A stretch of DNA of 64,000 bases from a virus. The position numbers and the translations under genes were made by a program. Each line of letters begins with the position of its first letter. Within the stretch, counting starts at the first letter, position 1. Below the pieces are notes generated by a model. The model was not told the origin of the DNA, did no database searches, and was given only the letters and a program-made list of their open reading frames with translations. The stretch lies in IMG/VR virus record IMGVR_UViG_3300009370_000003. The stretch is one strand, 5' to 3'. Positions 9,313-40,553 of this stretch are shown piece by piece.

Positions 9313-9684
9313 TTAGAGTTCTCTTAATCGAGATGCTAGAGGTTCGTCTATTTTTATATCAGTTTTCCATGATTCATCTATATACCCTAGGTATAATAAC
9401 ATGGTCTTTATTGAAGTCCAATATTTGTCGTCTTTGATTTTAAAGTCTAGCATTCTCATGCATGGATCATAGCCAAATACATTAAAGAGACAAATAAGGT
9501 GGTTTAACATGAGTCTTTCTCTCATTTCACCATTAGTATGATAACGGTGTAGTAATCGTTTGAGATATCTGAACCTTCTTAAGTCTTCTTGGAAGTCCTC
9601 AACCGACTCACATTGTGGGTCGTCATAATGCTTCATTGCATATGCTTGAAAGTTCTTTGCAGTGATTTTGTCAAATAGACTCAT
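9313..9684 (-). CDS. hypothetical protein typical of marine T4-like phages
   Basis: AMKHYDDPQC..EDF.EDL.RF.YLKRL; CTAAATA upstream. Confidence 0.75.
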   Translation of the reverse strand: MSLFDKITAKNFQAYAMKHYDDPQCESVEDFQEDLRRFRYLKRLLHRYHTNGEMRERLMLNHLICLFNVFGYDPCMRMLDFKIKDDKYWTSIKTMLLYLGYIDESWKTDIKIDEPLASRLREL

Positions 9685-9697
9685 AATATATTAATAT

Positions 9698-9845
9698 TTA
9701 GACACCCCGAAGGGATAAGATATACGACCTCTGACTTGGCCTTCACTATTAAGAAGTAGGGCCGTATCTCTACGGGACTCCTCTCTTCCCTAATTATCTC
9801 TTGGTATTAGTCTCACCCTTTCTTCAAAGTGGGTTTAGACTAATG
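9698..9845 (-). ncRNA. candidate structured intergenic RNA
   Basis: GC-enriched spacer with ATTAGTCT/AGACTAAT stem, CCGTA-GAGA-TACGG GNRA hairpin and CCC-TTCG-GGG hairpin. Confidence 0.4.
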
Positions 9846-29086: not shown

Positions 29087-29369
29087 TTTTGTCCCTCTCG
29101 ACTTGTTCCTCTAGGAGTTCCACTAGGATATCTCCCATAAGCTTTTCTAATGTATCATTATTTAGTAGTTCGTCCATTGTCAAATTTTCATCGTTAGGAA
29201 GTCTACGAATTGTTCGTTGAAAATTTAAATGTGGTTTACCTTCAACAAACTCCACATTACCATACTGATACACTAACCCTTCAAATTCTCCACTGACTAT
29301 TTCTATGCCAGCATCTTTCTCATGTGGATTTTCTACCACTTGAAATACATTTTTAAATAATTTTGACAT
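29055..29369 (-). CDS. hypothetical protein
   Basis: G.FEGLVYQYG.V pattern; coupled to TET gene. Confidence 0.65.
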   Translation of the reverse strand: MSKLFKNVFQVVENPHEKDAGIEIVSGEFEGLVYQYGNVEFVEGKPHLNFQRTIRRLPNDENLTMDELLNNDTLEKLMGDILVELLEEQVERDKNEQRSIEGTD

Positions 29370-30385
29370 TAGTCTCCTAAGAAACTATCTAAGCTACCAT
29401 GTTTGTCTCTATGATGGTGTCCGATAGGATTCTCTGTTTTACCTCTTACACCTTTTGTTGCAACATCACTTCCACAATATGCAACACATGTATGTCTGAC
29501 ACCTTCACCTTTAATTTGAGTCACACCATGCAATTCATTTGAATCTGCAATAATAACATCACCATCATCTGCATCGATACCAATTCCATATCTTGGGAAT
29601 GATAGATATGCGCCTTCAAAATCTCCACAACGAAATACACACATTGTTGTCATTCCAAAATCTAAATCGTCACCGTCAATATGTGCAGACATTTTTCCAG
29701 CACCTTCAACATATGAATATTTGTTTGCAGATATAGAAGTGAACGGAGCTCCTTGCAACCAGTATTTTTCTTCAACACACTCATCACAAAAATCTCTTTG
29801 TTTTTTCCAAACTTCGGGGGCCCCTATTTTTAATGCTTGTTCATTTAGAACTGCTATCTCTTGCATGCTTTCCCACTTCTCTTGGTTTCTTTTTAGTTTT
29901 GCCCAACCACTTAAACCAATCATTCCCGTAAATCTTCCTCTCTTATGTCCCATAAAAATAGAATGAATAGGGTTTGCTTCTGCAATTCGATTGAACTCAC
30001 CATTTTTCTTTAGTGGATAGTATGAGTTTGCAGTTCTTAATTTATAATGAACTCCCTCTATCATACCTTTCTTTGCCATTTCATCTTTATCAATAGGGCC
30101 AGCTGCATTTGCACGAAGTGTAGATACATCTTCAATAGATTGAACTGTTGACCTTAATTCTTCTAACTTCTCACCTTCGTATACGCCTTTAACAATACAT
30201 GCAAGTAGAGGTGGTTCCTCTCCAAGTGTAGATACTGGTTTATAAATCTTGGTTAACTCGTGGTCTGTTCCCACGGTAGATACTAGGTCTGTGACTTCAC
30301 TTCCGTCTAACCACTGACCGTTATACTTCTCCATAGTTTCTTTAAAACCATGGTCAACTGTTGGTGTGTGTGTTCTAATTGACAT
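29369..30385 (-). CDS. TET/JBP-family 2OG-Fe(II) dioxygenase
   Basis: SAHIDGDD (HxD), GDFEGAYLSFPRY, GDVIIAD..ELHGVT, RHTCVAY; overlaps the C5-MTase stop. Confidence 0.85.
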   Translation of the reverse strand: MSIRTHTPTVDHGFKETMEKYNGQWLDGSEVTDLVSTVGTDHELTKIYKPVSTLGEEPPLLACIVKGVYEGEKLEELRSTVQSIEDVSTLRANAAGPIDKDEMAKKGMIEGVHYKLRTANSYYPLKKNGEFNRIAEANPIHSIFMGHKRGRFTGMIGLSGWAKLKRNQEKWESMQEIAVLNEQALKIGAPEVWKKQRDFCDECVEEKYWLQGAPFTSISANKYSYVEGAGKMSAHIDGDDLDFGMTTMCVFRCGDFEGAYLSFPRYGIGIDADDGDVIIADSNELHGVTQIKGEGVRHTCVAYCGSDVATKGVRGKTENPIGHHHRDKHGSLDSFLGD

Positions 30386-31616
30386 TATACTTCTCCAAAA
30401 TATTTTCTAAGACACTTTCAACTAATGCCTTAAGACAAAGTGGTGCGACCATTAATCCTATTCTTGCACCCTTGTCGTTATAATCTCCCGTACTCCTATA
30501 GTCATCGGGAAGAGTCATAATCCTTTGTAATTCCTTTGGAGTATATATCCTTTCTCCACTGGGGTGAAAATGATTACCACCCATAAACTTTGGTTGACAC
30601 CCTTGTTCAGTTAATGAATGTGCAGCTTGAGTCCAAGGTACAATCCTTGACATGTAATAAGAATGTTTTTCATCTTCGGGGTCAATGATACCCCTTGCAA
30701 TTTGTTCTTTGAACCACGGGCCAACGATATCGTCTCCAATACTAACAACCCTTTCCATATTATTTATGCCCCTCATACCTAAGCATGGGCCCGAGTTGGG
30801 ATAGTCAGGGTGAGTATCAAATCCAAATACCCAATGAGCCTTTGAAGAATGTCTCAAAGATTCTTCTAGGTATTTTGCATCGGTTATGTTTTGTTCGTCA
30901 TCTTGTAAGTCTTCTATTGCATCTCTTACAGTCCATTCTTTTTGAGAAGGTTCAGGAAATACACTTCCTAAAACCATCCATGGCATTCCAATTTTATCTA
31001 ATACATCATTACGAACTGCAAGTATAAATGTTCTTTCTCTTTTTTGTGGAACTCCATGTTGGGCTGCATTCATAACTTTATAAACTGCAGAATATCCTTG
31101 TGCTTCAAAGTCTGTAATCATTCTATTCAAATGGTCTCTTGCATAGTCCATTGTAAGACCTTTTACATTTTCACAAATAACAATCTTGGGTTGGAGTTCA
31201 CCAGTAATTCTAATTACTTCCCAAGTTAAATCTTCAATGTTTTCTTGCTTCATTCCATATGCAATCTTCTCTTTGTTCCAACCTTCTCGTTTTGATCCAG
31301 CCATTGAAAATGGCGGACAAGGTGGACTTGCATCTAGAATATCTATTTCACCAACTCCTAGTCCACTAAGTTCCATGATATCTTTACCAGTAACTTTTTT
31401 AATGTCTTTACATTCGTGAACTGTGTTTGGGAAATTTAAAAGGTAGGTATCAACATGAAGTTGTTGAAATTCATTCATGTATTTACAATCTCCACCTAAG
31501 AGTTTGTATGCACATGAAGAACCGCCTCCGCCAGCAAAGAAAGTTATATAATTAAACTTCTTTGTTGAAGCACCTTCTTCAAGGTCTGATAATCTATATC
31601 TAAAATATTCGTTCAT
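30375..31616 (-). CDS. DNA (cytosine-5) methyltransferase
   Basis: FAGGGG (I), SPPCPPFS (IV), ENVKG (VI), Q.RER (VIII), R..T..E..RIMTLPD (IX). Confidence 0.95.
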   Translation of the reverse strand: MNEYFRYRLSDLEEGASTKKFNYITFFAGGGGSSCAYKLLGGDCKYMNEFQQLHVDTYLLNFPNTVHECKDIKKVTGKDIMELSGLGVGEIDILDASPPCPPFSMAGSKREGWNKEKIAYGMKQENIEDLTWEVIRITGELQPKIVICENVKGLTMDYARDHLNRMITDFEAQGYSAVYKVMNAAQHGVPQKRERTFILAVRNDVLDKIGMPWMVLGSVFPEPSQKEWTVRDAIEDLQDDEQNITDAKYLEESLRHSSKAHWVFGFDTHPDYPNSGPCLGMRGINNMERVVSIGDDIVGPWFKEQIARGIIDPEDEKHSYYMSRIVPWTQAAHSLTEQGCQPKFMGGNHFHPSGERIYTPKELQRIMTLPDDYRSTGDYNDKGARIGLMVAPLCLKALVESVLENILEKYNVN

Positions 31617-32376: not shown

Positions 32377-32442
32377 AATTACTCCATAATAAAATGATAC
32401 CACCATTATATCACATAACAGTGGTATCTGTATAGTGGGTTT

Positions 32443-32853
32443 CTATGAAATTTTGATAGAAACTGGTTTGTCTTCTTCGGGAATGACTCTCTCTAAGTTG
32501 ACACTCAATATACCGTTTTTATACACTGCACTGGCGATTTCTACATCGTCTGCAAGTGTAAATCTACGGTTGAATGCTCTAGAAGCTAATCCTTTATGGA
32601 CAAAGTCCTTCTCAGAATCTTCTGAACTACCCTCGATAACAAGAATGTTTTTCTCTTTAGTAACAGAAATTTCCTTCTTATCGAATCCAGCAACAGCAAG
32701 TTCAACGGTGAAATTTTCATCGTCTACTTTTACCACATTGTATGGTGGATAGTTTGATTGTGAGATTGTAGACATTCTTTCGAGGTCTTCGAAATATCTA
32801 TCAAATCCTATTGCGAACGGTCTGAATTGACCAAATATATCTAAATGCGTCAT
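32443..32853 (-). CDS. hsp20: small heat shock protein Hsp20
   Basis: NYPPYN, ELAVAGF, HKGLASRAF.R.F.L, NGIL. Confidence 0.95.
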   Translation of the reverse strand: MTHLDIFGQFRPFAIGFDRYFEDLERMSTISQSNYPPYNVVKVDDENFTVELAVAGFDKKEISVTKEKNILVIEGSSEDSEKDFVHKGLASRAFNRRFTLADDVEIASAVYKNGILSVNLERVIPEEDKPVSIKIS

Positions 32854-32960
32854 ATTTTTCTCCTTTAATTAAGCAAGTTAATATATGTAATCCTCTATTG
32901 AGCAATTACTAAAGTATTTATAATACTTATATACCTATTATATGGGTTTTTTCAAAAATT

Positions 32961-34838
32961 TCAAGAGGGTTTTTGTAATTTTCTTAATTTCCTATCAATT
33001 AAAGGTGCATATATCTTAACTGGAATTTCCTTTCCTTTAACATTTATTTCGTCAAGATACTGCCATTCACAATCAACTTGTTTCTTTGTGAACTCTGACA
33101 TTATAATTGGAGTGTCATATTGCCTTGTTTGGACTTCGAGTCTAGCTGCAAGGTTAACAGCGTCACCGACAACTGAATAATCGAATCGTGCTTCACTTCC
33201 CATGTTTCCGACAATGCATGGGCCTGTATTAATTCCCGTGCCAATGACTACTGGTGGTAAATCTAATCCTTCCCTTTCTATATCTATATTCATTTGTTCT
33301 GTTAATAGTTCTATTTCTATTGCAGATTTCAAAGCCATTTGTGCATGGTCAGGGCAATCAAGAGGAGCTCCCCAAAATGCCATCAAGCAGTCACCCATAT
33401 ATTTGTCGATGGTTCCACCATTTGCTAGGACAATTTTAGACATACCGTCTAGGAATCTATTAATTAGTTCCACTAATCCTTCGGGGTCGTCATTCTTCAT
33501 GTATGCTTCTGATATTGGAGTGAACCCAACTATGTCTGCGAAGAGGAATGAAAGTTCTCTTCTATCTCCACCAAGTTTCAATAATTCAGGGTTTTTTTGG
33601 AGTTCTTCAACCATGTCAGGAGATAAATATTTTTGAAACTGCTTCTTAATAAGTTCTTTGAGTTGATAAGTTGTATAGTATTTGTTGAAGGAAGCATGTC
33701 CGAAAACTATAATGGAGGCAATCGATGAGTAGAAAGTATCGAAAAGAACGAGAGATGAAGACCACCAATAGAGAGACCCACCCACCTGAAATCCAACGAA
33801 GACTAGAGAAGCTATCCCCGCAACGGCTGTGGGAAGTGTGTAGACCATTACCAATATTCCTAGAAGGACTGTCAGCAGAAGAGCGAGAGATAAGAATTCA
33901 AGATAGTAGGATTGTTGTATTCGAACATCTTGCAAAACGGTTTGGAGAAGTGAGGCTTGAACTTTATGAGGATACATTACACCCACTGGGGTTGAAACTG
34001 GATTATTAAGTCCCTCTGCAGTTAATCCCCAAATCAGTATCTTACCTTCAAGGTCTGAGTTGGGTAAATCCATTGCAGATATTCTCTCAAAATCGAACCA
34101 GTATCCAATTTGAACATCTGCAGTTGAGGTTGTTTCTATGGGAGGGCTCCTACCCATTCGAATCCACTCGATTCCAGCTTCTTCCGTGACTCGTGTTTGA
34201 TAATTCTTATGGTCACCAAATGCACGAAGAACCTCTAGTGCAACCGAAGGATATACAACATCATTTGCAGATACTATTAATGGTGCTGAACGGATTGTCC
34301 CGTCAAAGTTTGGTGTTCCTGAAATACTAGGTGTTGTGACTGTCACTCCTGAACCATACGAATTCTGTTTCAGGATATCAACTGGTGAAGCAATGCCAGA
34401 GAAGCTCCAAATATGGTCTTTTATCTCGCCGTCACCGAACACCGAAGTCTTAACAAATGGTGCAGACCCAGTATCTAATTGAGTTGTGGGTGCAGCTGAT
34501 AAAATCGATAGCCGATTAACTAATCCTTCTGCAAAAGCTTCGTCCCCTGAAAACCTATCAGGGTTTTTAAACAACTGGGTAAATACATGAGTGTTGGTAT
34601 AATGTGATTCCAACATTATATCTGCATAGATATTTCTCGGCCATGGGTATTGACCATACTTCTGTAGTGACTTCTCGTCTATGTCTACTAGAACTATGTT
34701 ATCGGTTTGTTCTATTTCTTTTGATTGGTGTAGGAAGTCAAACCAAGACCATGTAACATTCTCAATAAGATATGGATTCCATACCTTAAGTCCGAATAAT
34801 AACGAGACAGTTATTAATACTGTCTTCCACGAGTACAT
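32961..34838 (-). CDS. CHASE2-domain class III adenylate cyclase
   Basis: N-terminal TM, IVLVDIDE.SL..YGQYPWPR (CHASE2), 3 TMs, FADIVGFT, IDKYMGD, GDAVNLAARLE. Confidence 0.95.
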   Translation of the reverse strand: MYSWKTVLITVSLLFGLKVWNPYLIENVTWSWFDFLHQSKEIEQTDNIVLVDIDEKSLQKYGQYPWPRNIYADIMLESHYTNTHVFTQLFKNPDRFSGDEAFAEGLVNRLSILSAAPTTQLDTGSAPFVKTSVFGDGEIKDHIWSFSGIASPVDILKQNSYGSGVTVTTPSISGTPNFDGTIRSAPLIVSANDVVYPSVALEVLRAFGDHKNYQTRVTEEAGIEWIRMGRSPPIETTSTADVQIGYWFDFERISAMDLPNSDLEGKILIWGLTAEGLNNPVSTPVGVMYPHKVQASLLQTVLQDVRIQQSYYLEFLSLALLLTVLLGILVMVYTLPTAVAGIASLVFVGFQVGGSLYWWSSSLVLFDTFYSSIASIIVFGHASFNKYYTTYQLKELIKKQFQKYLSPDMVEELQKNPELLKLGGDRRELSFLFADIVGFTPISEAYMKNDDPEGLVELINRFLDGMSKIVLANGGTIDKYMGDCLMAFWGAPLDCPDHAQMALKSAIEIELLTEQMNIDIEREGLDLPPVVIGTGINTGPCIVGNMGSEARFDYSVVGDAVNLAARLEVQTRQYDTPIIMSEFTKKQVDCEWQYLDEINVKGKEIPVKIYAPLIDRKLRKLQKPS

Positions 34839-35002
34839 TATGTTATCCAACAAACTGGATATACACACCAGTAAGGATTAGCTACTCCTAAAAGCCACAA
34901 TATAAAAATCCATAAGGGAATCTGTATCCAAGTTTTTCCTTTAGACCATTCCCTGAACCTGATGGCGTGCGGAACCATCTTATTAAACAACCATTGTTTC
35001 AT
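34838..35002 (-). CDS. small Trp-rich membrane protein
   Basis: WIQIPLWIFILWLLG helix, CVYPVC; start uncertain. Confidence 0.5.
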   Translation of the reverse strand: MKQWLFNKMVPHAIRFREWSKGKTWIQIPLWIFILWLLGVANPYWCVYPVCWIT

Positions 35003-35112
35003 TAGGAGACCAGTCGATAAAACGACAGTGCTAATCCAACCAATAAGGTTCCTAATACTATAAAAACCCATTTGATATGAAATTTATAATTTATTATTTT
35101 ATCCCACATAAT

Positions 35113-35973
35113 TTAATCTTGTGTTACTGTAATTGTGCAACCGCCGACTGTATAACAAGCTTGAGACAAAGTATATGACTGAGCTGAGCCTGCGTGTTGC
35201 GTTAAATCTAAAGTAGTTCCATAAGTACCATTCAAAGTAATATTTGCAGTATGTTGAGCATTACCGTCTTGAAGATAGTCAACAATATTAGAGTCATTAT
35301 GAACTGTTAAGTTTAATGTCTTTGAACTGTCTCCTTTCTGTTTTCCAAACACATCATTGTCATCTCCATAGAGATAGATTCTTGCTGAATGTCCGTCACA
35401 ATTATTGTTTGCACAATTCCTTTGCTGTCCTTTTATTGAATTATCACTACCATGGATATCTATGGTGACAGTATGATTACCGCCGTCATTATTATCTATT
35501 GACCATGTAGTGTCGTTACGGTTTGAGAATTCATATCCTTGGGCCCACCAAAGTGTATTGTCATCTCCATATGCTATGTGGAACTGAATGTCGTTTTTAC
35601 CGCAGGACGAATTTTTCGTGCAGTTTTGGTAGAGTTTAAGTGATTGTCTTTCTCCGTCAATATCGCCACCCCAACCATAACCTGAGCCCCAGCTGGGGGA
35701 ATCATTTGCGTATCCAATTTCATTATTGTTTCCTTTTTGTAAGATTTCTATATCGTAATCGTCTCCGTCTCCAAGTGAGAAAAAGATATTGTTGTTGAAT
35801 CCTTCTTGGTCGATAGTTAGGTCGAGATTATCTCCACCCGCTGTGACCTGATTAATATTGATACGGTTATCATCATCAGCAAATGCTTTAATTGCTGAAA
35901 ATAACACCATGAGTGTAAAACACCCTATGAATAATTTTGCTGACCAGTCCAATTTTCCCTCAGTTTGTTTCAC
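35113..35973 (-). CDS. curlin-like (CsgA/CsgB-like) secreted repeat protein
   Basis: signal peptide AFA|DDDN; repeats I-x-Q-x-G-x-x-N (IDQEGFNN, ILQKGNNN, IHGSDN, LQDGNA); likely GTG start. Confidence 0.75.
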   Translation of the reverse strand: MKQTEGKLDWSAKLFIGCFTLMVLFSAIKAFADDDNRININQVTAGGDNLDLTIDQEGFNNNIFFSLGDGDDYDIEILQKGNNNEIGYANDSPSWGSGYGWGGDIDGERQSLKLYQNCTKNSSCGKNDIQFHIAYGDDNTLWWAQGYEFSNRNDTTWSIDNNDGGNHTVTIDIHGSDNSIKGQQRNCANNNCDGHSARIYLYGDDNDVFGKQKGDSSKTLNLTVHNDSNIVDYLQDGNAQHTANITLNGTYGTTLDLTQHAGSAQSYTLSQACYTVGGCTITVTQD

Positions 35974-36119
35974 CCACAAATCCACCAAACAAGTAAAACA
36001 AGAATTACACCTTCAGCCCATGCTATCCAAAGTGCTTGGTAATCTGTAAGGTTGAATCTATCGATAAACTTCCAACAAAGTCTTTCGTGCCATTCTAAAA
36101 AGTCCTTTAAATATTTCAT
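35970..36119 (-). CDS. small membrane protein, 49 aa (not in ORF track)
   Basis: MKYLKDFLEWHERL...GVILVLLVWWICG with AGGAG RBS. Confidence 0.65.
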   Translation of the reverse strand: MKYLKDFLEWHERLCWKFIDRFNLTDYQALWIAWAEGVILVLLVWWICG

Positions 36120-36141
36120 ATTTACTCCTAATGTCTTTTAT

Positions 36142-37284
36142 TTAGTTAGTTTGCCTGATTACAATTTCAATATTGGTGTCTCCTTGACCGAAATCAATAA
36201 TCCCTTCATACCCGTCTAAAGTTAAATCTAAGTATCCTAAACCTCCAGCTGCAATGATTATCTCAATCTTTCCATTCACATCTCTATAGAGATATAGGTC
36301 TCCGTCTTGGACAAATACATTAAACTGTGAGTCTTTATTGAATCCTTGGACTGCACCTTTAATATTGAATTGTCCTAGGGTTGCTCCACCACCAGTTGAG
36401 CCTGACCCTTTAATCTTTTTATCTAGTGCTTCTACCACATCTAATAAATCTGTCAAGAAGTCAACTCCAAGCATATCTATATCAAGCTCAGTGAAATCAT
36501 CTTCCATGGTATCTTCGAGTTCGTCTGACTCTAAATCATTGAACTCTAAAAAGTCTACATCTAGTATTCCAGTATCGTCATTTTGGTCGTCAGCGACAGC
36601 GTCTTCTATTGCTTGTTTAACTTCCGCAGGTGGAGAAACAATAAACATGTTATCAATCATTGAAGGTGTTATGTTTTGAATAATAACATTTTGTGTTGGA
36701 GGAGATTCCAAAGTAGAAACCATAGTTGCCTGATATGGAAGATTGAGTAAGGTTTCTCCACCCTCATTAAATACTTTTATCTCACCACTAGAACCACCTG
36801 TTTCATCAGGTAGCAGAATCACGAGTGTTCTCCCGAGCTCGTCAATAGTAGTTGTAAAATCTGTGCCGTTGATTGCTATTTGAGCTGTCGGCGTTGAAAT
36901 ATCTATGTTTGCTTTCTTTATTTTTTTCCCTTTCCCTGAAGCAAACCTTGCTGTTCCTTGAACCATTCTCAAGGACATTTTTGATAATGAGGGATTAGGG
37001 TCATAGTATACTTCGTCTATGTATACTACTGTGTGTTCGATTAAATCAAGTTCCTCTTCGTCTAAGAACTCAATCTTCATTCTGCCGTTTACTGTTTCGG
37101 CTTCGTCATACAAAAAAATGTCACCACCGACATTATTCTGTTGCACTTCATTGTTTCTAACTATCTGGCCTATACCAGTAGACTCAACAATGTCTCCAAT
37201 GGGGTCTGCAAATGCGACCCCACTGAATAACAATATATTAAGAATCGTTAGCTGCGTCTTTCTGATTGATTTGAATAACTGCAT
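36142..37284 (-). CDS. secreted FecR-domain protein
   Basis: signal peptide AFA|D; ETVNGRMKIEF.D, L..GTARF, TPTAQIAINGTDF FecR signature; acidic C-terminal region. Confidence 0.85.
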   Translation of the reverse strand: MQLFKSIRKTQLTILNILLFSGVAFADPIGDIVESTGIGQIVRNNEVQQNNVGGDIFLYDEAETVNGRMKIEFLDEEELDLIEHTVVYIDEVYYDPNPSLSKMSLRMVQGTARFASGKGKKIKKANIDISTPTAQIAINGTDFTTTIDELGRTLVILLPDETGGSSGEIKVFNEGGETLLNLPYQATMVSTLESPPTQNVIIQNITPSMIDNMFIVSPPAEVKQAIEDAVADDQNDDTGILDVDFLEFNDLESDELEDTMEDDFTELDIDMLGVDFLTDLLDVVEALDKKIKGSGSTGGGATLGQFNIKGAVQGFNKDSQFNVFVQDGDLYLYRDVNGKIEIIIAAGGLGYLDLTLDGYEGIIDFGQGDTNIEIVIRQTN

Positions 37285-37984
37285 TATCACTTGTTATATC
37301 TAATGTAATTAAAGCATTTGGAGTTGCACAACTGTTTCCAGCTCCACTTACACATGTTCCTGATATCTGATTGATATCCACATCTGCACTATCTCCTGTT
37401 AATTCAACCGTCATTTCGTTTGCACCATCTTTCTGTAATGTATTAACATTATTTGAGTCACCAGTTATATCCCAGTTCCAAACAACATCATCGGATTCAA
37501 AATCCAAATCAAATACATTCGAAGAACCCACTAAGACTAAATCTGCATTTAATCTTTCTGCTCCTAAACCATATCCTTGGTCAATGTCAAAGATGTTTGA
37601 ATCTCCTTGAACAGTGAAAAGATAATCAGTAGCATCTGCTGACCCTACATTACCAATGTTCCAGTCTATCTTGTTCGAATCACCTGTGAAGGTTAATGTA
37701 TATTTCGAACTGTCTGCAACAACGGGCCCGAATAAGACATTCTGATTACCAGTAAAGTCTAAATCGAACTCCAAAGTTTGTCCTGTAATAAGCATGGCGG
37801 TTATGCTTCCGCTGGAACCATCGTTACCACCTATCTTATTACCAAAACCTATTTGGTCAATGTATATTTTTAATGTATCACCCGTTTGGGTAATCTTAAT
37901 TTCATTGTCATCAGTGGCTGCTCCGAAAACGATAGGCGAAGCCAATAATAATATTGCTCCTAATAAACTAATTAGTTTCTTCAT
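37238..37984 (-). CDS. curlin-like (CsgA/CsgB-like) secreted repeat protein
   Basis: signal peptide; ITQTGD, IDQIGFGN, GDSNKI, QGDSNIF, GSSNVF, GDSNNV repeats; immediately after csgG. Confidence 0.8.
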   Translation of the reverse strand: MKKLISLLGAILLLASPIVFGAATDDNEIKITQTGDTLKIYIDQIGFGNKIGGNDGSSGSITAMLITGQTLEFDLDFTGNQNVLFGPVVADSSKYTLTFTGDSNKIDWNIGNVGSADATDYLFTVQGDSNIFDIDQGYGLGAERLNADLVLVGSSNVFDLDFESDDVVWNWDITGDSNNVNTLQKDGANEMTVELTGDSADVDINQISGTCVSGAGNSCATPNALITLDITSDNAVIQINQKDAANDS

Positions 37985-38897
37985 TTTCGTTATACCCCTC
38001 GGGGAACTTTTCGTCATACCCCGTTATGTTCCAAAAACCTCTTTCGTGTCCTTGGTATACTAATTCCAGCACTCCAGCTTCAATAGCTGTTCGCACTGCG
38101 TAAGTCACTGACTCATTATTTCCAATGCCATCCTCTATCTCTATTAATTGAGTTCCTTGTTCTACGAAACGGAAAACATCGCCTCCCGTTCCATAACTCA
38201 ATATAGTCTTTCGAGTTTGGACATTTAATAAAACCTCTCCAGTAAGAACTGATACAGCTCTTATTGAAATGGTCACGACATCTTGACGATATCGTTTACT
38301 ATAACCAATACCTAGTGTCCGTGCGCCTCGTCCACCTGTTCTTATATTGGTATCATAACCAATTACTCCACCCTCTATTATCATACCCGCAAAGAGTAGT
38401 GGTTGTATTCCTTCGGCTTCGTCTTTACCTTCAGCCTTAGCAAATTCTGTTCTTGCAGACCTAATAATCTGCCTTTCTCTAACTAAGTGGTCTATACCAC
38501 TTCGTTCTACTACCCTAAACCAAGTACCATTTCCAGCCGTTTTAAGAGCGTCTATGACCATTTCTTGTCCACCTTGGGTCACTGCAGTAGAGAAGCTTGC
38601 AATGTTGTCTACGGACTTCCTCTGTCCAGTCTTATCTAAGAACTGATAAACTGCAACTACTGGCATCTCTTCTGCTGGTGGTAATCTTAATAGTTCAAGA
38701 AATGAGGGTAGTCTTACTACTTCGGGGTCTTCCACACAAATATATTTTCGTGCAAACTGTTTCTTTACCCCAGTGTATACATCTTTCTTAAACCCTTCGT
38801 CCCAGCGACCACAATTTTGTGGGTCGTCTGTCCACTTAGGAATTGAAGCACAGCTACTCAATACTAAAAGTAATGCTAATGAAAGAACCTTAATCAT
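37968..38897 (-). CDS. csgG: curli secretion channel lipoprotein CsgG
   Basis: lipobox LSSC; VAVYQFLDKTGQRK, FSTAVTQG, WFRVVER, ERQIIR, IEGGVIGYD. Confidence 0.95.
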   Translation of the reverse strand: MIKVLSLALLLVLSSCASIPKWTDDPQNCGRWDEGFKKDVYTGVKKQFARKYICVEDPEVVRLPSFLELLRLPPAEEMPVVAVYQFLDKTGQRKSVDNIASFSTAVTQGGQEMVIDALKTAGNGTWFRVVERSGIDHLVRERQIIRSARTEFAKAEGKDEAEGIQPLLFAGMIIEGGVIGYDTNIRTGGRGARTLGIGYSKRYRQDVVTISIRAVSVLTGEVLLNVQTRKTILSYGTGGDVFRFVEQGTQLIEIEDGIGNNESVTYAVRTAIEAGVLELVYQGHERGFWNITGYDEKFPEGYNENEETN

Positions 38898-39433
38898 TAG
38901 GTTCCTCCGTCGCCACCCCCGCCATCGACAGGAATCGCGTCAGGGTCTTGTGCAAAATTACCAGTTCCTATAGGTATTTCAATAATGGTTGATGTTCCGT
39001 CTTCACCTATAATGGTCATTCGTATGAACTCAACCCCTGCTTCATCTGTTAATACTTCCCAAGTAATAGTGTTTCCTTCTAGAATAAATGAACCAAATGA
39101 ACTTGAATTATCATTTGAGAACATAGATTCAACTAACTGTTTTGCAAGTGTAGCATAAATTCTGCTTTCTAAGTTTCTAATAAATTTTGCAAGAACCGTA
39201 TTGTCTGCTTCTCTTTCTGCAGCTTTCCTAGCTGACTCCAAAGCATCTTCGATTTGTTTCTTCCGAGAAAATTCCTGATTCTCGATAGTTAAATAATGAG
39301 CACCCTGACCCTGTTTACTAAACGATGGATTTCCAAATTTATGAACAATCTCATCTGCGTAAACATTCGTTGCATGTAGAAATAAAACCCCTACAATGAT
39401 AATGCTACTTACGACTTTTTTTATTACTGACAT
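38897..39433 (-). CDS. csgF: curli assembly protein CsgF
   Basis: signal peptide then EIVHKFGNPSFS (CsgF F.NP.F motif), F..NLESRI; adjacent to csgG. Confidence 0.85.
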   Translation of the reverse strand: MSVIKKVVSSIIIVGVLFLHATNVYADEIVHKFGNPSFSKQGQGAHYLTIENQEFSRKKQIEDALESARKAAEREADNTVLAKFIRNLESRIYATLAKQLVESMFSNDNSSSFGSFILEGNTITWEVLTDEAGVEFIRMTIIGEDGTSTIIEIPIGTGNFAQDPDAIPVDGGGGDGGT

Positions 39434-39683
39434 TCTTTTCCTCTTGTTCTTGCTGTTCCTTATATTCTAGCACTGTGTTAACCTTCTGCTGTAAACGAAT
39501 CAAGTCGTTATCTAACATTCTAATTTGGTCAAGAAGTCTTATAAGGATTGTATTAGATTTTCCTAGAGCAGGTTTTAGTTCTTGTGTGACAAATTTCCAC
39601 ACAAAAAATATAAAATACCCCATGCCCAGTGCGAGAACCACGGGAAAACCGAATTCTGCAATCATCTGAGCTATGGTATTCAT
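39405..39683 (-). CDS. small membrane protein (paralog of 39683-39976)
   Basis: EFGFP TM, QIRMLDNDLIR coiled coil. Confidence 0.75.
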   Translation of the reverse strand: MNTIAQMIAEFGFPVVLALGMGYFIFFVWKFVTQELKPALGKSNTILIRLLDQIRMLDNDLIRLQQKVNTVLEYKEQQEQEEKNVSNKKSRK

Positions 39684-39976
39684 TAGTCCCTACGAGAATC
39701 TATCTTCTCATCTTCTATAAAATTCTCTGCACGAGCAATTCTATCAATGTCTGGCTTTAAATCTAAAGCCGAAGAAACCAATAAGTCAATCTTAATCATA
39801 TCATTGTTCATCATTCGAACACGATTCTCTAAAGATTCCATAATACCAGCCAATCCTTTTACTTGTCCTACCACTGACTCTAAAATATACTTCAAAGTCA
39901 GGAATATAAAGAAGGCCATAATCACTGCACTTCCTATAGGAATGCCCACTTCACTCAAAAATGTTAATATATCCAT
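39683..39976 (-). CDS. small membrane protein (paralog of 39405-39683)
   Basis: EVGIP TM, RVRMMNNDMIK coiled coil. Confidence 0.75.
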   Translation of the reverse strand: MDILTFLSEVGIPIGSAVIMAFFIFLTLKYILESVVGQVKGLAGIMESLENRVRMMNNDMIKIDLLVSSALDLKPDIDRIARAENFIEDEKIDSRRD

Positions 39977-39981
39977 ACCAT

Positions 39982-39988
39982 TATTTAT
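39982..39988 (-). promoter_or_regulatory. late-type promoter heading the curli operon
   Basis: ATAAATA just upstream of ATG 39976. Confidence 0.6.
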
Positions 39989-40030: not shown

Positions 40031-40060
40031 AAAAAAAAGGAGACCGAAGCCTCCTTTTTA
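40031..40060 (-). terminator. intrinsic terminator
   Basis: GGAGGC-TTCG-GTCTCC followed by T8. Confidence 0.85.
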
Positions 40061-40077: not shown

Positions 40078-40341
40078 TTATTTCAGTTGTGAATGTATTT
40101 CACTAATGACAGCAGCTTTATTACCTGACTTTTTAACCTTTAGAGAGCGTTTCTCTGCGAAATCAAAAAGTTGACCCTTAGTTAGTTTTCCAAGTTCTGC
40201 TTTAGAGACAACACCATTGTTGTTCCTGTCAGCAGTCACTACTGGTTTGGAAGTTTGGGTCTTCTTAGAACCCTGTTCCTTCCATACTAGAAAAGCAACT
40301 ACGGCTACGATAATTAAAACTACGATACTTGAAGTTTCCAT
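40078..40341 (-). CDS. membrane-anchored small protein with EF-hand-like loop and HeH/Rho_N-like tail
   Basis: N-terminal TM; DRNNNGVVSKAE; LTKGQLFDFAE..L.V..SGNKAAVI. Confidence 0.6.
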   Translation of the reverse strand: METSSIVVLIIVAVVAFLVWKEQGSKKTQTSKPVVTADRNNNGVVSKAELGKLTKGQLFDFAEKRSLKVKKSGNKAAVISEIHSQLK

Positions 40342-40379: not shown

Positions 40380-40553
40380 TTAGTCCTTAGCTTTACCAAC
40401 ATTTATTGCTACCCAGTCTATTACTTTATAGCACTTTTTAACGATGCCGTCATCTACTGGTGTTGGAGTTAAAGCTGCAACTAATGAAGCACCCATAACT
40501 AACCAAGGTATCACTTGAATCCATGCTATAATCCATTGTAGGAATTCTAACAT
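40380..40553 (-). CDS. small membrane protein, 57 aa, holin-like (not in ORF track)
   Basis: MLEFLQWII...ASLVAALTPTPVDD..., AGGAG RBS. Confidence 0.7.
   Translation of the reverse strand: MLEFLQWIIAWIQVIPWLVMGASLVAALTPTPVDDGIVKKCYKVIDWVAINVGKAKD

What the first reader, a model, noticed from the sequence alone, without database searches (positions are those of the whole stretch)
32961..39988. Phage curli secretion operon coupled to a FecR protein and a CHASE2 adenylate cyclase: candidate trans-envelope signalling system
Seen: one co-oriented, largely overlapping gene run, insulated by a terminator (40031-40060) and headed by a late-type ATAAATA. Order: two membrane paralogs, csgF, csgG, curlin-like A, secreted FecR-domain protein, small TM protein, curlin-like B, small TM protein, CHASE2-3TM-class III cyclase. 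No csgE, csgC, csgD, ECF sigma or TonB receptor is recognisable. Known: CsgG/CsgF form the outer-membrane channel for curlin; csg genes have been reported in some marine T4-like phages; FecR and CHASE2-cyclase genes co-occur in bacteria. Inference: the phage builds a full relay in the infected cell (surface curlin, CsgG/F pore, periplasmic FecR, inner-membrane CHASE2 cyclase, cAMP). It could sense cell contact, superinfecting particles or envelope damage to tune lysis timing or host CRP metabolism, rather than only making adhesive amyloid.
Basis: partly seen in the sequence, partly recalled or inferred. Interest (0 to 1): 0.9.

Follow-up and report, generated by a model that had tools for sequence, protein, structure and literature searches.

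The report
Phage curli–FecR–CHASE2 cyclase gene cluster
A T4-like marine phage carries a compact gene set for an outer-membrane curli-type secretion pore, two secreted curlin-like fibre proteins, a periplasmic FecR-like protein and a membrane-bound cAMP-making sensor; the gene set is real, is conserved in many phages and was published for pelagiphages in 2022, but whether the parts form one signalling relay is still untested.

Summary
Ten co-oriented genes at 32961-39976 (minus strand) encode two small membrane paralogs, CsgF, CsgG, curlin-like A, a secreted FecR-domain protein, a 49-aa membrane protein, curlin-like B, a 77-aa ORF and a CHASE2 class III adenylate cyclase. A terminator and an ATAAATA motif precede the run.

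The gene content is already published. HTVC008M gp011-gp019 has the same order, and Zaragoza-Solas 2020 and Wittmers 2022 described the pelagiphage module with FecR and the cyclase. This window is a new member of a known kind.

What I add:
- The cyclase carries a CHASE2 sensor and all six catalytic residues (Lys/Asp pair, ATP-specific), invariant in 75 homologues.
- The FecR protein is a soluble periplasmic protein, not an anti-sigma factor. Its closest bacterial relatives are a curli-linked FecR gene and the N-terminal domains of giant RTX adhesins.
- The "histidine kinase" label for the small membrane paralogs is unsupported.
- The same seven gene families also occur in complete 338-364 kb T4-like jumbo phages, in three different gene orders. 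That argues they form one functional unit.
- No phage genome searched encodes a cNMP-binding protein.

The trans-envelope relay is plausible by analogy but not shown.

The parts
40034..40059 (-). Intrinsic terminator ending the upstream gene (40078-40341) and insulating the 5' side of the cluster
   Evidence: 11-bp stem, 4-nt loop and a T-run. A hairpin plus T-run is conserved in 25 distinct related loci.
39982..39988 (-). ATAAATA late-promoter-like motif, ending 5 nt before the memA ATG
   Evidence: (C/T)ATAAATA is kept in 25/25 distinct upstream regions, mostly with the same 5-nt spacing. If it works as a T4-type late promoter, the mRNA would be leaderless or nearly so (inference).
39683..39976 (-). 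memA: 97-aa bitopic membrane protein, paralog of memB
   Evidence: phrog_18771, E 8e-27. One hydrophobic helix at residues 10-28. No Pfam family at E<=0.1. The nearest ESM Atlas clusters are viral and carry no Pfam family.
39405..39683 (-). memB: 92-aa bitopic membrane protein, paralog of memA
   Evidence: phrog_18771, E 9e-30. A weak Rz-like spanin match (phrog_89, E 6e-4). No HisKA or HATPase_c domain.
38897..39433 (-). csgF homologue (178 aa) with a Sec signal peptide
   Evidence: PF10614, 41.1 bits against a cut-off of 25.8. Signal peptide ending VYA. The mature N-terminus carries an F-G-N-P-S-F motif like the NPNF region of E. coli CsgF (by inspection; the E. coli motif is from my own knowledge).
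37968..38897 (-). csgG homologue (309 aa), outer-membrane lipoprotein channel
   Evidence: PF03783, E 1.3e-50. E. coli CsgG structure 4uv3, E 9e-45, with the pore-loop Phe (F102) aligned to F56. Lipobox Cys16 and F102 are invariant in 10 phage homologues.
37238..38017 (-). Curlin-like A (probable start at 37984): secreted beta-solenoid repeat protein
   Evidence: Curlin_rpt, 25.8 bits. G-x-x-N repeats every 22-26 residues are invariant across 17 homologues. The AF2 model is all-beta with pLDDT 74. Its best structural match is the curli subunit CsgA 8c50, Z 16.4, tied with SufD-type beta-helices. Homologous to curlin B, hhalign E 3.7e-38.
36142..37290 (-). Secreted FecR-domain protein (382 aa): signal peptide, FecR/CJM-like beta domain (~30-215), conserved acidic LDVDFL-type motifs (~240-295), C-terminal beta region
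   Evidence: PF04773, E 1.2e-7. AF2 pLDDT ~88 over residues 30-210. Structural matches: PupR CCSSD 6ovk Z 15.4, BDI_1681 Z 13.9, MpIBP anchoring domain 5ix9 Z 9.9. Alignment A2.
35970..36119 (-). sTM1: 49-aa tail-anchored small membrane protein
   Evidence: 36 distinct homologues conserve length, the W-H-E motif and a C-terminal hydrophobic helix. Found between FecR and curlin B in nearly all loci of this lineage.
35113..35988 (-). Curlin-like B (291 aa) with Cys-pair loops
   Evidence: Curlin_rpt, 21.0 bits against a cut-off of 20.7. Homologous to curlin A. Signal peptide ending AFA.
34838..35071 (-). sTM2: 77-aa ORF, status uncertain
   Evidence: Detected only in close relatives, at 75-87% identity. 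No family match. In other lineages this interval is empty or holds unrelated genes.
32961..34868 (-). CHASE2 - transmembrane - class III adenylate cyclase (probable start at 34838)
   Evidence: CHASE2 at residues 24-339 and cyclase at 438-614. D445, K489, D493, D563, N572 and R576 are present and invariant in 75 viral homologues. The Lys sits where the engineered adenylate cyclase 6fht has Lys and the parent chain 2w01 has Glu. The CHASE2 domain is as conserved as the cyclase domain (71% versus 69% identity).
32443..32853 (-). Downstream hsp20 gene with its own TATAAATA (32915-32922) and a terminator (32396-32428); marks the 3' boundary and is not part of the cluster proper
   Evidence: phrog_432, E 7e-43. 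Motif and terminator. Syntenic downstream of the cyclase in this lineage, but not in the other lineages.

Best explanation
This is a copy of the published T4-like phage envelope module, the pelagiphage T8SS-FecR-adenylate cyclase cluster. It probably acts as one late-expressed unit.

Shown by sequence and fold:
- The infected cell would receive an outer-membrane CsgG lipoprotein channel capped by CsgF.
- It would receive two Sec-exported curlin-like beta-solenoid proteins as cargo.
- It would receive a soluble periplasmic FecR/CJM-fold protein.
- It would receive three small inner-membrane proteins.
- It would receive an inner-membrane receptor cyclase whose periplasmic CHASE2 domain controls a catalytically complete, ATP-specific class III domain.

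Inferred:
- The FecR-like protein is the periplasmic adaptor. In every known context this fold docks on the periplasmic side of an outer-membrane protein or channel, and it is the habitual gene neighbour of CHASE2 sensors.
- It would therefore report the state of the CsgG/CsgF-curlin apparatus, or a cue entering through it, to CHASE2.
- That would set cAMP synthesis in the infected cell, acting on a host-encoded receptor.
For: - Domains and compartments.
- Catalytic residues are invariant in 75 homologues, and CHASE2 is under the same constraint as the cyclase domain.
- Same order in HTVC008M gp011-gp019 and in all 80 cyclase-selected IMG/VR loci that have enough flank.
- CsgG-selected loci keep FecR and the cyclase in 16/16 and 13/13 cases.
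- In a distant lineage that includes complete 338-364 kb T4-like genomes with terminal repeats, 38/38 loci keep CsgF, CsgG, FecR and the cyclase. 30/38 show all seven families. Three gene orders occur, with the cyclase or the mem pair inverted. Pfam confirms the domains in one of these genomes.
- FecR and CHASE2 genes are adjacent in 4/4 cases in two Rhizobium genomes, and two of those cyclases are full-length homologues of the phage cyclase at E 1e-80.
- Literature precedents: a LysM-FecR protein plus a CHASE2 kinase in Burkholderia (PMC5192318); the outer-membrane protein NsrA plus the CHASE2 cyclases CyaK and CyaD1/D2 in S. meliloti (PMC7529298); PupR bound to its outer-membrane partner is the best fold match.
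- A conserved terminator and ATAAATA motif head the unit.
- Expression of the module in ocean metatranscriptomes is reported (PMC9599517).
Against: - No interaction was tested.
- The phage FecR profile scores higher on a curli-linked bacterial FecR with no CHASE2 gene nearby (89 bits) and on RTX-adhesin N-termini (65-80 bits) than on CHASE2-linked Rhizobium FecR proteins (40-44 bits).
- Unrelated genes sit inside the cluster in some phages: radical-SAM-like, IscU-like and ferredoxin-like.
- Some podophage copies are reported without the cyclase (PMC9599517).
- SMc02177, the FecR-domain neighbour of cyaD1, was not needed for signal perception (PMC5498481).
- No cNMP-binding protein is found in HTVC008M, four further complete or near-complete genomes and four partial records. 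Host receptors were not examined.
- Melnitz infections showed no clumping (PMC9004378).
Confidence: 0.4

Rival explanations
1. There are two independent modules that only share an address. One is a curli-type secretion system, including the FecR-like protein as a T8SS accessory: a periplasmic gate, a plug replacing the missing CsgE, or a fibre anchor like the retention domain of RTX adhesins. It would make fibres for adhesion or 'sibling capture'. The other is a CHASE2 cyclase that senses an unrelated periplasmic cue.
For: - The bacterial cluster curlin-CsgF-CsgG-curlin-like x2-FecR in Ca. Salivita marina is flanked by housekeeping genes, and its only CHASE2 gene lies about 170 kb away.
- The FecR domain is most like the N-termini of giant RTX proteins encoded next to type I secretion genes and like the MpIBP anchoring domain 5ix9, Z 9.9.
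- No CsgE is present.
- Foreign genes separate curlin B from the cyclase in some loci.
- Podophage copies lacking the cyclase are reported (PMC9599517).
Against: - The cyclase stays within 6-12 kb of csgG in every myophage locus with enough flank (16/16, 13/13, 38/38), even when it is inverted.
- FecR and CHASE2 adjacency is the rule in the bacteria examined.
Confidence: 0.3
2. The CsgG/CsgF pore is used as a gated channel or pinholin-like device that times lysis or lets molecules pass, as proposed for phage Melnitz. The curlin-like proteins, FecR and the cyclase would be modulators or unrelated.
For: - Melnitz showed no cell clumping, and its authors argued from structure models and synteny for a role in release timing (PMC9004378).
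- The cluster has a late-type motif.
- memB weakly resembles Rz-like spanins, E 6e-4.
- The cluster holds several small membrane proteins.
Against: - Two curlin-like cargo proteins with signal peptides, Cys pairs and conserved repeats are under clear constraint across all lineages. A bare pore would not need them.
- The spanin match is weak.
- The charge distribution around the mem helices suggests cytoplasmic C-termini, unlike Rz (inspection).
Confidence: 0.15
3. FecR, the cyclase and the small membrane proteins are transcriptional-type regulators of curli expression, as suggested in the 2022 paper: an iron-responsive FecR, a histidine kinase, and cAMP acting on a CsgD-like route.
For: This is the interpretation offered in PMC9599517. 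In E. coli, cAMP-CRP affects csgD (statement in that paper).
Against: - The FecR protein has a signal peptide and then the FecR domain. It lacks the cytoplasmic anti-sigma domain and membrane anchor, and no ECF sigma or TonB-dependent transducer lies nearby.
- The 92-97 aa mem proteins have no HisKA or HATPase_c domain and are too short to be kinases.
- No CsgD and no cNMP-binding regulator is found in the phage genomes.
Confidence: 0.08

Closest known systems
Pelagiphage T8SS (curli) module with FecR and adenylate cyclase (HTVC008M gp011-gp019; Zaragoza-Solas 2020, PMC7029224; Wittmers 2022, PMC9599517; Melnitz, PMC9004378)
   Same: Same gene families in the same order: two small membrane proteins (called HK there), CsgF, CsgG, curlin, FecR, second curlin, cyclase. 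Same kind of phage. HTVC008M proteins are 32-50% identical to those of the window.
   Different: Nothing essential differs; this is another member. Those papers do not mention the CHASE2 domain, the secreted, non-anti-sigma nature of the FecR protein, the 49-aa gene, or copies outside pelagiphages and Melnitz (text searches).
E. coli curli system CsgG/CsgF/CsgA/CsgB/CsgE
   Same: CsgG is homologous (E 9e-45) with the pore-loop Phe kept. A CsgF family member is present. The cargo has curlin repeats and a beta-solenoid model whose best match is a CsgA structure.
   Different: No CsgE, CsgC or CsgD. Pore-loop Tyr51 and Asn55 are replaced. The cargo is 230-290 aa with 22-26-residue repeats and Cys pairs. 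FecR, CHASE2 cyclase and small membrane proteins are added.
FecA-FecR-FecI / PupB-PupR cell-surface signalling
   Same: The periplasmic beta domain of the phage protein superposes on the PupR C-terminal signalling domain (Z 15.4, rmsd 2.5 A, 136 residues). That domain binds an outer-membrane transducer.
   Different: No cytoplasmic anti-sigma domain, no membrane anchor, no detected STN subdomain, no ECF sigma and no TonB-dependent receptor.
S. meliloti NsrA - CyaK/CyaD1/CyaD2 - Clr cascade
   Same: An outer-membrane beta-barrel protein is required for signal perception by CHASE2 adenylate cyclases (nsrA lies just upstream of cyaK, from my own knowledge). A FecR-domain gene (smc02177) lies in the cyaD1 region (PMC7529298, PMC5498481). 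Rhizobium CHASE2 cyclases are full-length homologues of the phage enzyme.
   Different: NsrA is not CsgG. The FecR-domain protein was not needed for perception there. A Clr receptor is known there and none is known here.
Burkholderia BiofilmReg operon / P. aeruginosa PA4035-type pair (LysM-FecR protein plus CHASE2 histidine kinase)
   Same: A secreted FecR-domain protein is encoded next to a CHASE2 sensor (PMC5192318).
   Different: The output there is a histidine kinase and response regulator, not a cyclase. There is no secretion system, and the FecR protein carries LysM.
N-terminal retention/anchoring domain of giant RTX adhesins (MpIBP 5ix9; LapA-type, type I secretion)
   Same: The phage FecR profile finds the N-termini of 1,100-9,900-aa open frames at E 1e-20 to 1e-33. 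The two examined in full are RTX proteins next to TolC-like, ABC and HlyD genes. 5ix9 superposes on residues 28-122 (Z 9.9).
   Different: The phage protein is 382 aa, has no RTX repeats and sits with a type VIII system, not a type I system.

Membership tests
Type VIII (curli) secretion system | CsgG-family outer-membrane lipoprotein channel | tested here: met
   PF03783, 172 bits. E 9e-45 to E. coli CsgG structures. Lipobox Cys and pore-loop Phe are invariant.
Type VIII (curli) secretion system | CsgF-family partner | tested here: met
   PF10614, 41.1 bits against a cut-off of 25.8. There was no direct sequence hit to a solved CsgF.
Type VIII (curli) secretion system | Secreted subunits with curlin repeats and a beta-solenoid fold | tested here: met
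   PF07012 lies just above its cut-off in both proteins. Regular G-x-x-N repeats. AF2 model is all-beta, and its top match is CsgA 8c50 at Z 16.4, tied with other beta-helices.
Type VIII (curli) secretion system | Amyloid fibres formed on the cell surface | not testable with these tools
   Needs Congo red or ThT staining and electron microscopy of infected or expressing cells.
Type VIII (curli) secretion system | CsgE periplasmic gate (gammaproteobacterial systems) | tested here: not met
   No PF10627 match in five related phage genomes; the E. coli control was positive. No cluster protein matches it. Reported to be lacking in alphaproteobacterial curli systems too (PMC9599517).
FecR-type anti-sigma regulator | Periplasmic FecR (CJM-like) domain | tested here: met
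   PF04773, 32.5 bits. PupR 6ovk, Z 15.4.
FecR-type anti-sigma regulator | N-terminal cytoplasmic anti-sigma domain and one transmembrane helix | tested here: not met
   Residues 1-29 form a cleavable-type signal peptide ending AFA. The FecR domain starts at about residue 30.
FecR-type anti-sigma regulator | Partner ECF sigma factor and TonB-dependent transducer | tested here: not met
   None in the cluster. The only Sigma70_r2-like match in HTVC008M is about 67 kb away.
FecR-type anti-sigma regulator | C-terminal STN subdomain | tested here: inconclusive
   The structural alignment covers PupR residues 111-265 only. The C-terminal third of the model has low confidence.
CHASE2 receptor adenylate cyclase (class III) | Periplasmic CHASE2 domain between membrane helices | tested here: met
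   PF05226, 100 bits, residues 24-339. Hydrophobic segments follow at 325-390.
CHASE2 receptor adenylate cyclase (class III) | Two metal-binding Asp, transition-state Asn and Arg, and a Lys/Asp pair for ATP | tested here: met
   D445, D493, N572, R576, K489 and D563 are invariant in 75 homologues. Alignment to Cya2-derived chains. The role of each residue is assigned from my own knowledge of class III cyclases.
CHASE2 receptor adenylate cyclase (class III) | cAMP synthesis regulated through CHASE2 | not testable with these tools
   Needs an enzyme or reporter assay.
Histidine kinase (label given to memA/memB in PMC9599517) | HisKA/DHp and HATPase_c domains | tested here: not met
   No Pfam match at E<=0.1 for memA, and only chance-level hits for memB. 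phrog_18771 has unknown function. The Atlas neighbours have no Pfam family. The proteins are only 92-97 aa long.
Published pelagiphage T8SS-FecR-AC module | Gene families and order, T4-like phage context | tested here: met
   with the text of PMC9599517.

The most novel reading that the evidence does not exclude
The FecR-like protein is a tether across the outer membrane.
- Its folded N-terminal domain stays in the periplasm under the CsgG/CsgF channel, like the retention domain of RTX adhesins.
- Its conserved acidic segment threads the pore.
- Its C-terminal beta region joins or nucleates the curlin fibre outside.
- Load on the fibre, or blockage of the pore (cell contact, another phage, envelope damage), would then move the periplasmic head and switch the CHASE2 cyclase.

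This would be the first virus-encoded outside-in second-messenger relay. It would be carried by T4-like phages from 140 kb pelagimyophages to 360 kb jumbo phages.
Probability: 0.2. Interest if true: 0.85.

Novelty: new member of a known kind. Interest (0 to 1): 0.45.

Why it matters
Phages of SAR11 and OM43, two of the most abundant marine bacterial groups, give their hosts an envelope machine that those hosts are reported not to have, together with a sensor that makes cAMP.

If the parts are coupled, this would be a case of a lytic virus installing its own sensory pathway across both membranes of the infected cell. It could affect lysis timing, superinfection or aggregation in the ocean.

I found the same seven gene families in complete jumbo T4-like phages with GC from 32 to 56%, kept together through rearrangements. 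This suggests the module is a general accessory of this phage group rather than a pelagiphage curiosity.

Two cultured phage-host pairs carry it (HTVC008M with HTCC1062, and Melnitz with H5P1), so the question can be tested at the bench.

Tried and rejected
- **FecR C-terminus as a curlin repeat.** hhalign of the last 95 residues of FecR against the curlin A and B alignments gave E 0.2. The negative control (FecR N-domain against curlin A) gave E 0.15. There is no statistical support.
- **memA/memB as histidine kinases.** Rejected; see the membership test.
- **Foldseek on the curlin A model.** No match with E<=0.001. Only the VIA-align wide search put CsgA on top.
- **A phage-encoded cAMP receptor.** No PF00027 match in HTVC008M or in eight IMG/VR records, four of them complete or near-complete genomes.
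- **A cAMP receptor in SAR11.** Two literature searches gave nothing usable. No SAR11 genome handle was available.
- **P0266.** This protein is labelled "FecR family protein [Paracoccaceae bacterium]". It was not found in 401 genomes of that family or in viral contigs, so its context stays unknown.
- **Bacterial copies of the whole seven-family cluster.** None was found. The 20 CsgG loci from species genomes were phage contigs binned into MAGs (L082-L091, and probably L093), the Salivita cluster, or plain csgF/csgG loci. The FecR profile matched over its full length in only 1 of 401 Pseudomonadota genomes, and that one was the seed genome.

Full report
**What the window is.** All long ORFs lie on the minus strand. 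They include T4-type DNA polymerase, ribonucleotide reductase, a DnaB-like helicase, the major head protein and a scaffold protein. The only DNA-level match among isolated phages is Pelagibacter phage HTVC008M (Kyanoviridae), at 67% identity over part of the cyclase gene. GC is 36.6%. The window is therefore a T4-like pelagimyophage-type genome. No whole genome is held for it.

**Check of the observation.**
- Pfam confirms CsgF, CsgG, one curlin repeat above the cut-off in each of two proteins, a FecR domain, and CHASE2 plus a class III cyclase domain, at the stated coordinates.
- The two leading 92-97 aa proteins are paralogs; both hit phrog_18771.
- Genes overlap or are 22-41 nt apart.
- The terminator at 40034-40059 is real. 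ATAAATA lies at 39982-39988, 5 nt before the first ATG.
- In 25 distinct related loci a hairpin with a T-run and (C/T)ATAAATA are always kept, although the sequence between them is unrelated. This is good evidence that both are functional.
- With T4-type spacing, the transcript would start at or next to the A of the ATG (inference).
- There is no terminator right after the cyclase. A perfect TATAAATA (32915-32922) precedes hsp20, and the next terminator is at 32396-32428.

**The parts.**
- *CsgG.* It aligns to E. coli CsgG structures at E 9e-45. The pore-loop Phe is kept and invariant. The Tyr and Asn of that loop are replaced.
- *Curlins.* Curlin A and B are homologous to each other (E 3.7e-38). 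Curlin A shows invariant G-x-x-N pairs every 22-26 residues. Its AF2 model is an all-beta solenoid (pLDDT 74). Its top structural match is the curli subunit CsgA of Pontibacter (8c50, Z 16.4, 18% identity), tied with SufD-type beta-helices.
- *Export signals.* CsgF, both curlins and the FecR protein have Sec-type signal peptides. CsgG has a lipobox.
- *Cyclase.* It has both metal-binding Asp, the Asn and Arg, and a Lys/Asp pair, all invariant in 75 viral homologues. At the Lys position the engineered adenylate cyclase 6fht has Lys and the parent chain 2w01 has Glu. The CHASE2 domain is as conserved as the catalytic domain.
- *sTM1.* The 49-aa ORF is a conserved gene.
- *sTM2.* The 77-aa ORF is detected only in close relatives.

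**The FecR protein.** It has a signal peptide and then directly the FecR domain. It has no anti-sigma domain and no membrane anchor.
- The AF2 model is confident for residues 30-210.
- It superposes on the PupR cell-surface signalling domain (Z 15.4), on BDI_1681 (Z 13.9) and, over its first half, on the cell-surface anchoring domain of the RTX adhesin MpIBP (5ix9, Z 9.9). The next match has Z 5.1.
- Two conserved acidic LDVDFL-type motifs follow, and then a C-terminal beta region of low model confidence.
- Both the acidic motifs and the C-terminal region are conserved in all lineages.

**What is already known.**
- HTVC008M gp011-gp019 has the same order and carries CsgF, CsgG, curlin and cyclase annotations.
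- Zaragoza-Solas et al. 2020 described the curli operon of pelagimyophages and proposed pore or "sibling capture" roles.
- Wittmers et al. 2022 described HK, CsgF, CsgG, CsgA/B, FecR, a second CsgA/B and an adenylate cyclase in myo- and podo-pelagiphages. They reported conservation, ocean-wide abundance, metatranscriptome expression and an alphaproteobacterial origin, and they suggested regulatory roles for FecR and the cyclase.
- Buchholz et al. 2022 found the operon in the OM43 phage Melnitz, saw no clumping and proposed a gated pore for lysis timing.
- None of these texts mentions CHASE2. The 2020 paper and the Melnitz paper mention neither the cyclase nor FecR.
- Among 50,697 phage records, only HTVC008M and Melnitz carry phage-type CsgG together with this cyclase.

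**Conservation tests.**
- Selected by the cyclase: all 80 IMG/VR loci with enough flank keep the full order.
- Selected by CsgG (unbiased for the cyclase): 16/16 loci of the window's lineage and 13/13 of a second T4-like lineage keep FecR and the cyclase.
- A profile of the FecR protein finds 209 clusters (at 50% identity) with E<=1e-30.
- One of these, P0202, leads to 254 further viral contigs with GC 32-56%. They include complete 338-364 kb genomes with terminal repeats and a T4-type major capsid gene.
- In that lineage, 38/38 loci with enough flank have CsgF, CsgG, FecR and the cyclase. 30/38 show all seven families.
- Three gene orders occur there: the pelagiphage order (14 loci); the mem pair moved behind the cyclase on the other strand (32 loci); and the mem pair behind FecR with the cyclase inverted (15 loci).
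- Pfam confirms the domains in a complete 344 kb genome.
- L093 shows a fourth order, with three mem paralogs upstream and the cyclase inverted.
- Staying together through rearrangements is the strongest computational evidence that all seven families belong to one system. I found no paper in the held library that reports the module in jumbo phages.

**Bacterial context.**
- Of 20 CsgG loci from species genomes, L082-L091 and probably L093 are phage contigs binned into MAGs.
- A 773-kb contig of Ca. Salivita marina (Gammaproteobacteria) carries curlin-CsgF-CsgG-two curlin-like genes-FecR between acyl-CoA dehydrogenase and pyruvate phosphate dikinase genes. Its only CHASE2 gene lies about 170 kb away on the same contig. 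So a bacterial curli cluster can include this FecR type without a cyclase.
- In two Rhizobium genomes all four CHASE2 genes have a FecR-domain neighbour. Two of those cyclases match the phage cyclase over its full length at E 1e-80.
- The phage-only FecR profile scores 89 bits on the Salivita protein, 65-80 bits on N-termini of giant open frames, and 40-44 bits on the CHASE2-linked Rhizobium proteins. The two giant frames examined in full are RTX proteins encoded beside TolC-like, ABC and HlyD genes.

**Reading.** The FecR fold recurs as a periplasmic domain that works beneath an outer-membrane protein (PupR-PupB, RTX adhesin retention) and as the neighbour of CHASE2 sensors. S. meliloti offers a precedent: the outer-membrane protein NsrA passes signals to CHASE2 cyclases (PMC7529298).
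- It is not demonstrated. The FecR type here is closer to secretion-associated relatives. Foreign genes interrupt the cluster in some phages. Podophage copies without the cyclase are reported. The S. meliloti FecR-domain protein was dispensable for perception (PMC5498481).
- No phage genome searched encodes a cNMP-binding protein, so any receptor must be the host's. I could not test that.

**Odds.** I put the coupled-relay reading at about 0.4. The two-module reading, with FecR as a secretion accessory, is at about 0.3. A pore or lysis-timing role is at about 0.15. The published transcription-type regulator reading is below 0.1.

**Verdict.** This report adds four things: the CHASE2 and secreted-FecR reading, the correction of the kinase label, a bacterial curli-FecR cluster, and the spread of the module into jumbo T4-like phages with shuffled gene order.

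Noticed in passing
window 59034, 51313, 39988, 16607 (minus strand): NATAAATA followed after exactly 5 nt by an ATG that opens an ORF occurs four times among 19 ATAAATA sites. Two of these sites read GATAAATAGTATTATG and lie at gene junctions, about 10 nt below the end of the ORF listed upstream. This is either a leaderless late start or a junction/translation signal.
   Followed up: partly
window 32443-32853, with TATAAATA at 32915-32922 and terminator at 32396-32428: An Hsp20-family small heat-shock gene lies directly downstream of the cyclase and has its own canonical late motif. It is syntenic in this lineage. It is present within 9 kb in 27/80 loci of the jumbo-phage lineage, absent from the second pelagimyophage lineage, and found in only 3/23 CsgG-selected loci. 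A chaperone next to amyloid-type genes may or may not be meaningful.
   Followed up: partly
L034 4307-5224, L060 4855-5703; L013 9428-9925, L047 7445-7936, L049 9508-10005, L077 9540-9983; L153 7186-7620: Unrelated genes are inserted inside the cluster in some phages. A radical-SAM-like gene (CxxxCxxC) sits between memB and csgF. An IscU/NifU-like gene sits between curlin B and the cyclase. A ferredoxin-like gene occurs in another lineage. All were identified by motif inspection only.
   Followed up: no
L092 8536-14093 (Ca. Salivita marina MAG, 773-kb contig): A chromosomal bacterial cluster curlin-CsgF-CsgG-two curlin-like genes-FecR is flanked by housekeeping genes. CsgF is split into two frames at 9337-9833, which could be a frameshift or an assembly error. 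The FecR protein's cluster has 108 members in marine metagenomes.
   Followed up: partly
L145 3247-17505 and L146 5418-9683: Giant RTX proteins (4752 and 1421 aa) have a FecR-like N-terminal domain and lie next to TolC-like, ABC and HlyD genes. One also lies next to a TPR-CHAT protein. The FecR profile finds such N-termini in many of 401 Pseudomonadota genomes.
   Followed up: partly
L082-L091, L093: Phage contigs carrying this cluster are binned into MAGs labelled Rhodobacterales, Sphingobacteriales, Synechococcus, Flavobacteriales, Saprospirales and Luteolibacter. Taxon labels of such hits, including 'FecR family protein [Paracoccaceae bacterium]', should not be read as hosts or donors.
   Followed up: partly
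window 40078-40341 and 40380-40553: Two small membrane proteins (87 and 57 aa) lie just upstream of the terminator. They are syntenic with the cluster in most loci of this lineage. Their function is unknown.
   Followed up: no
window 29369-31616: A DNA methyltransferase (phrog_116, 30375-31616) overlaps a 338-aa ORF (29369-30385). I did not examine it.
   Followed up: no
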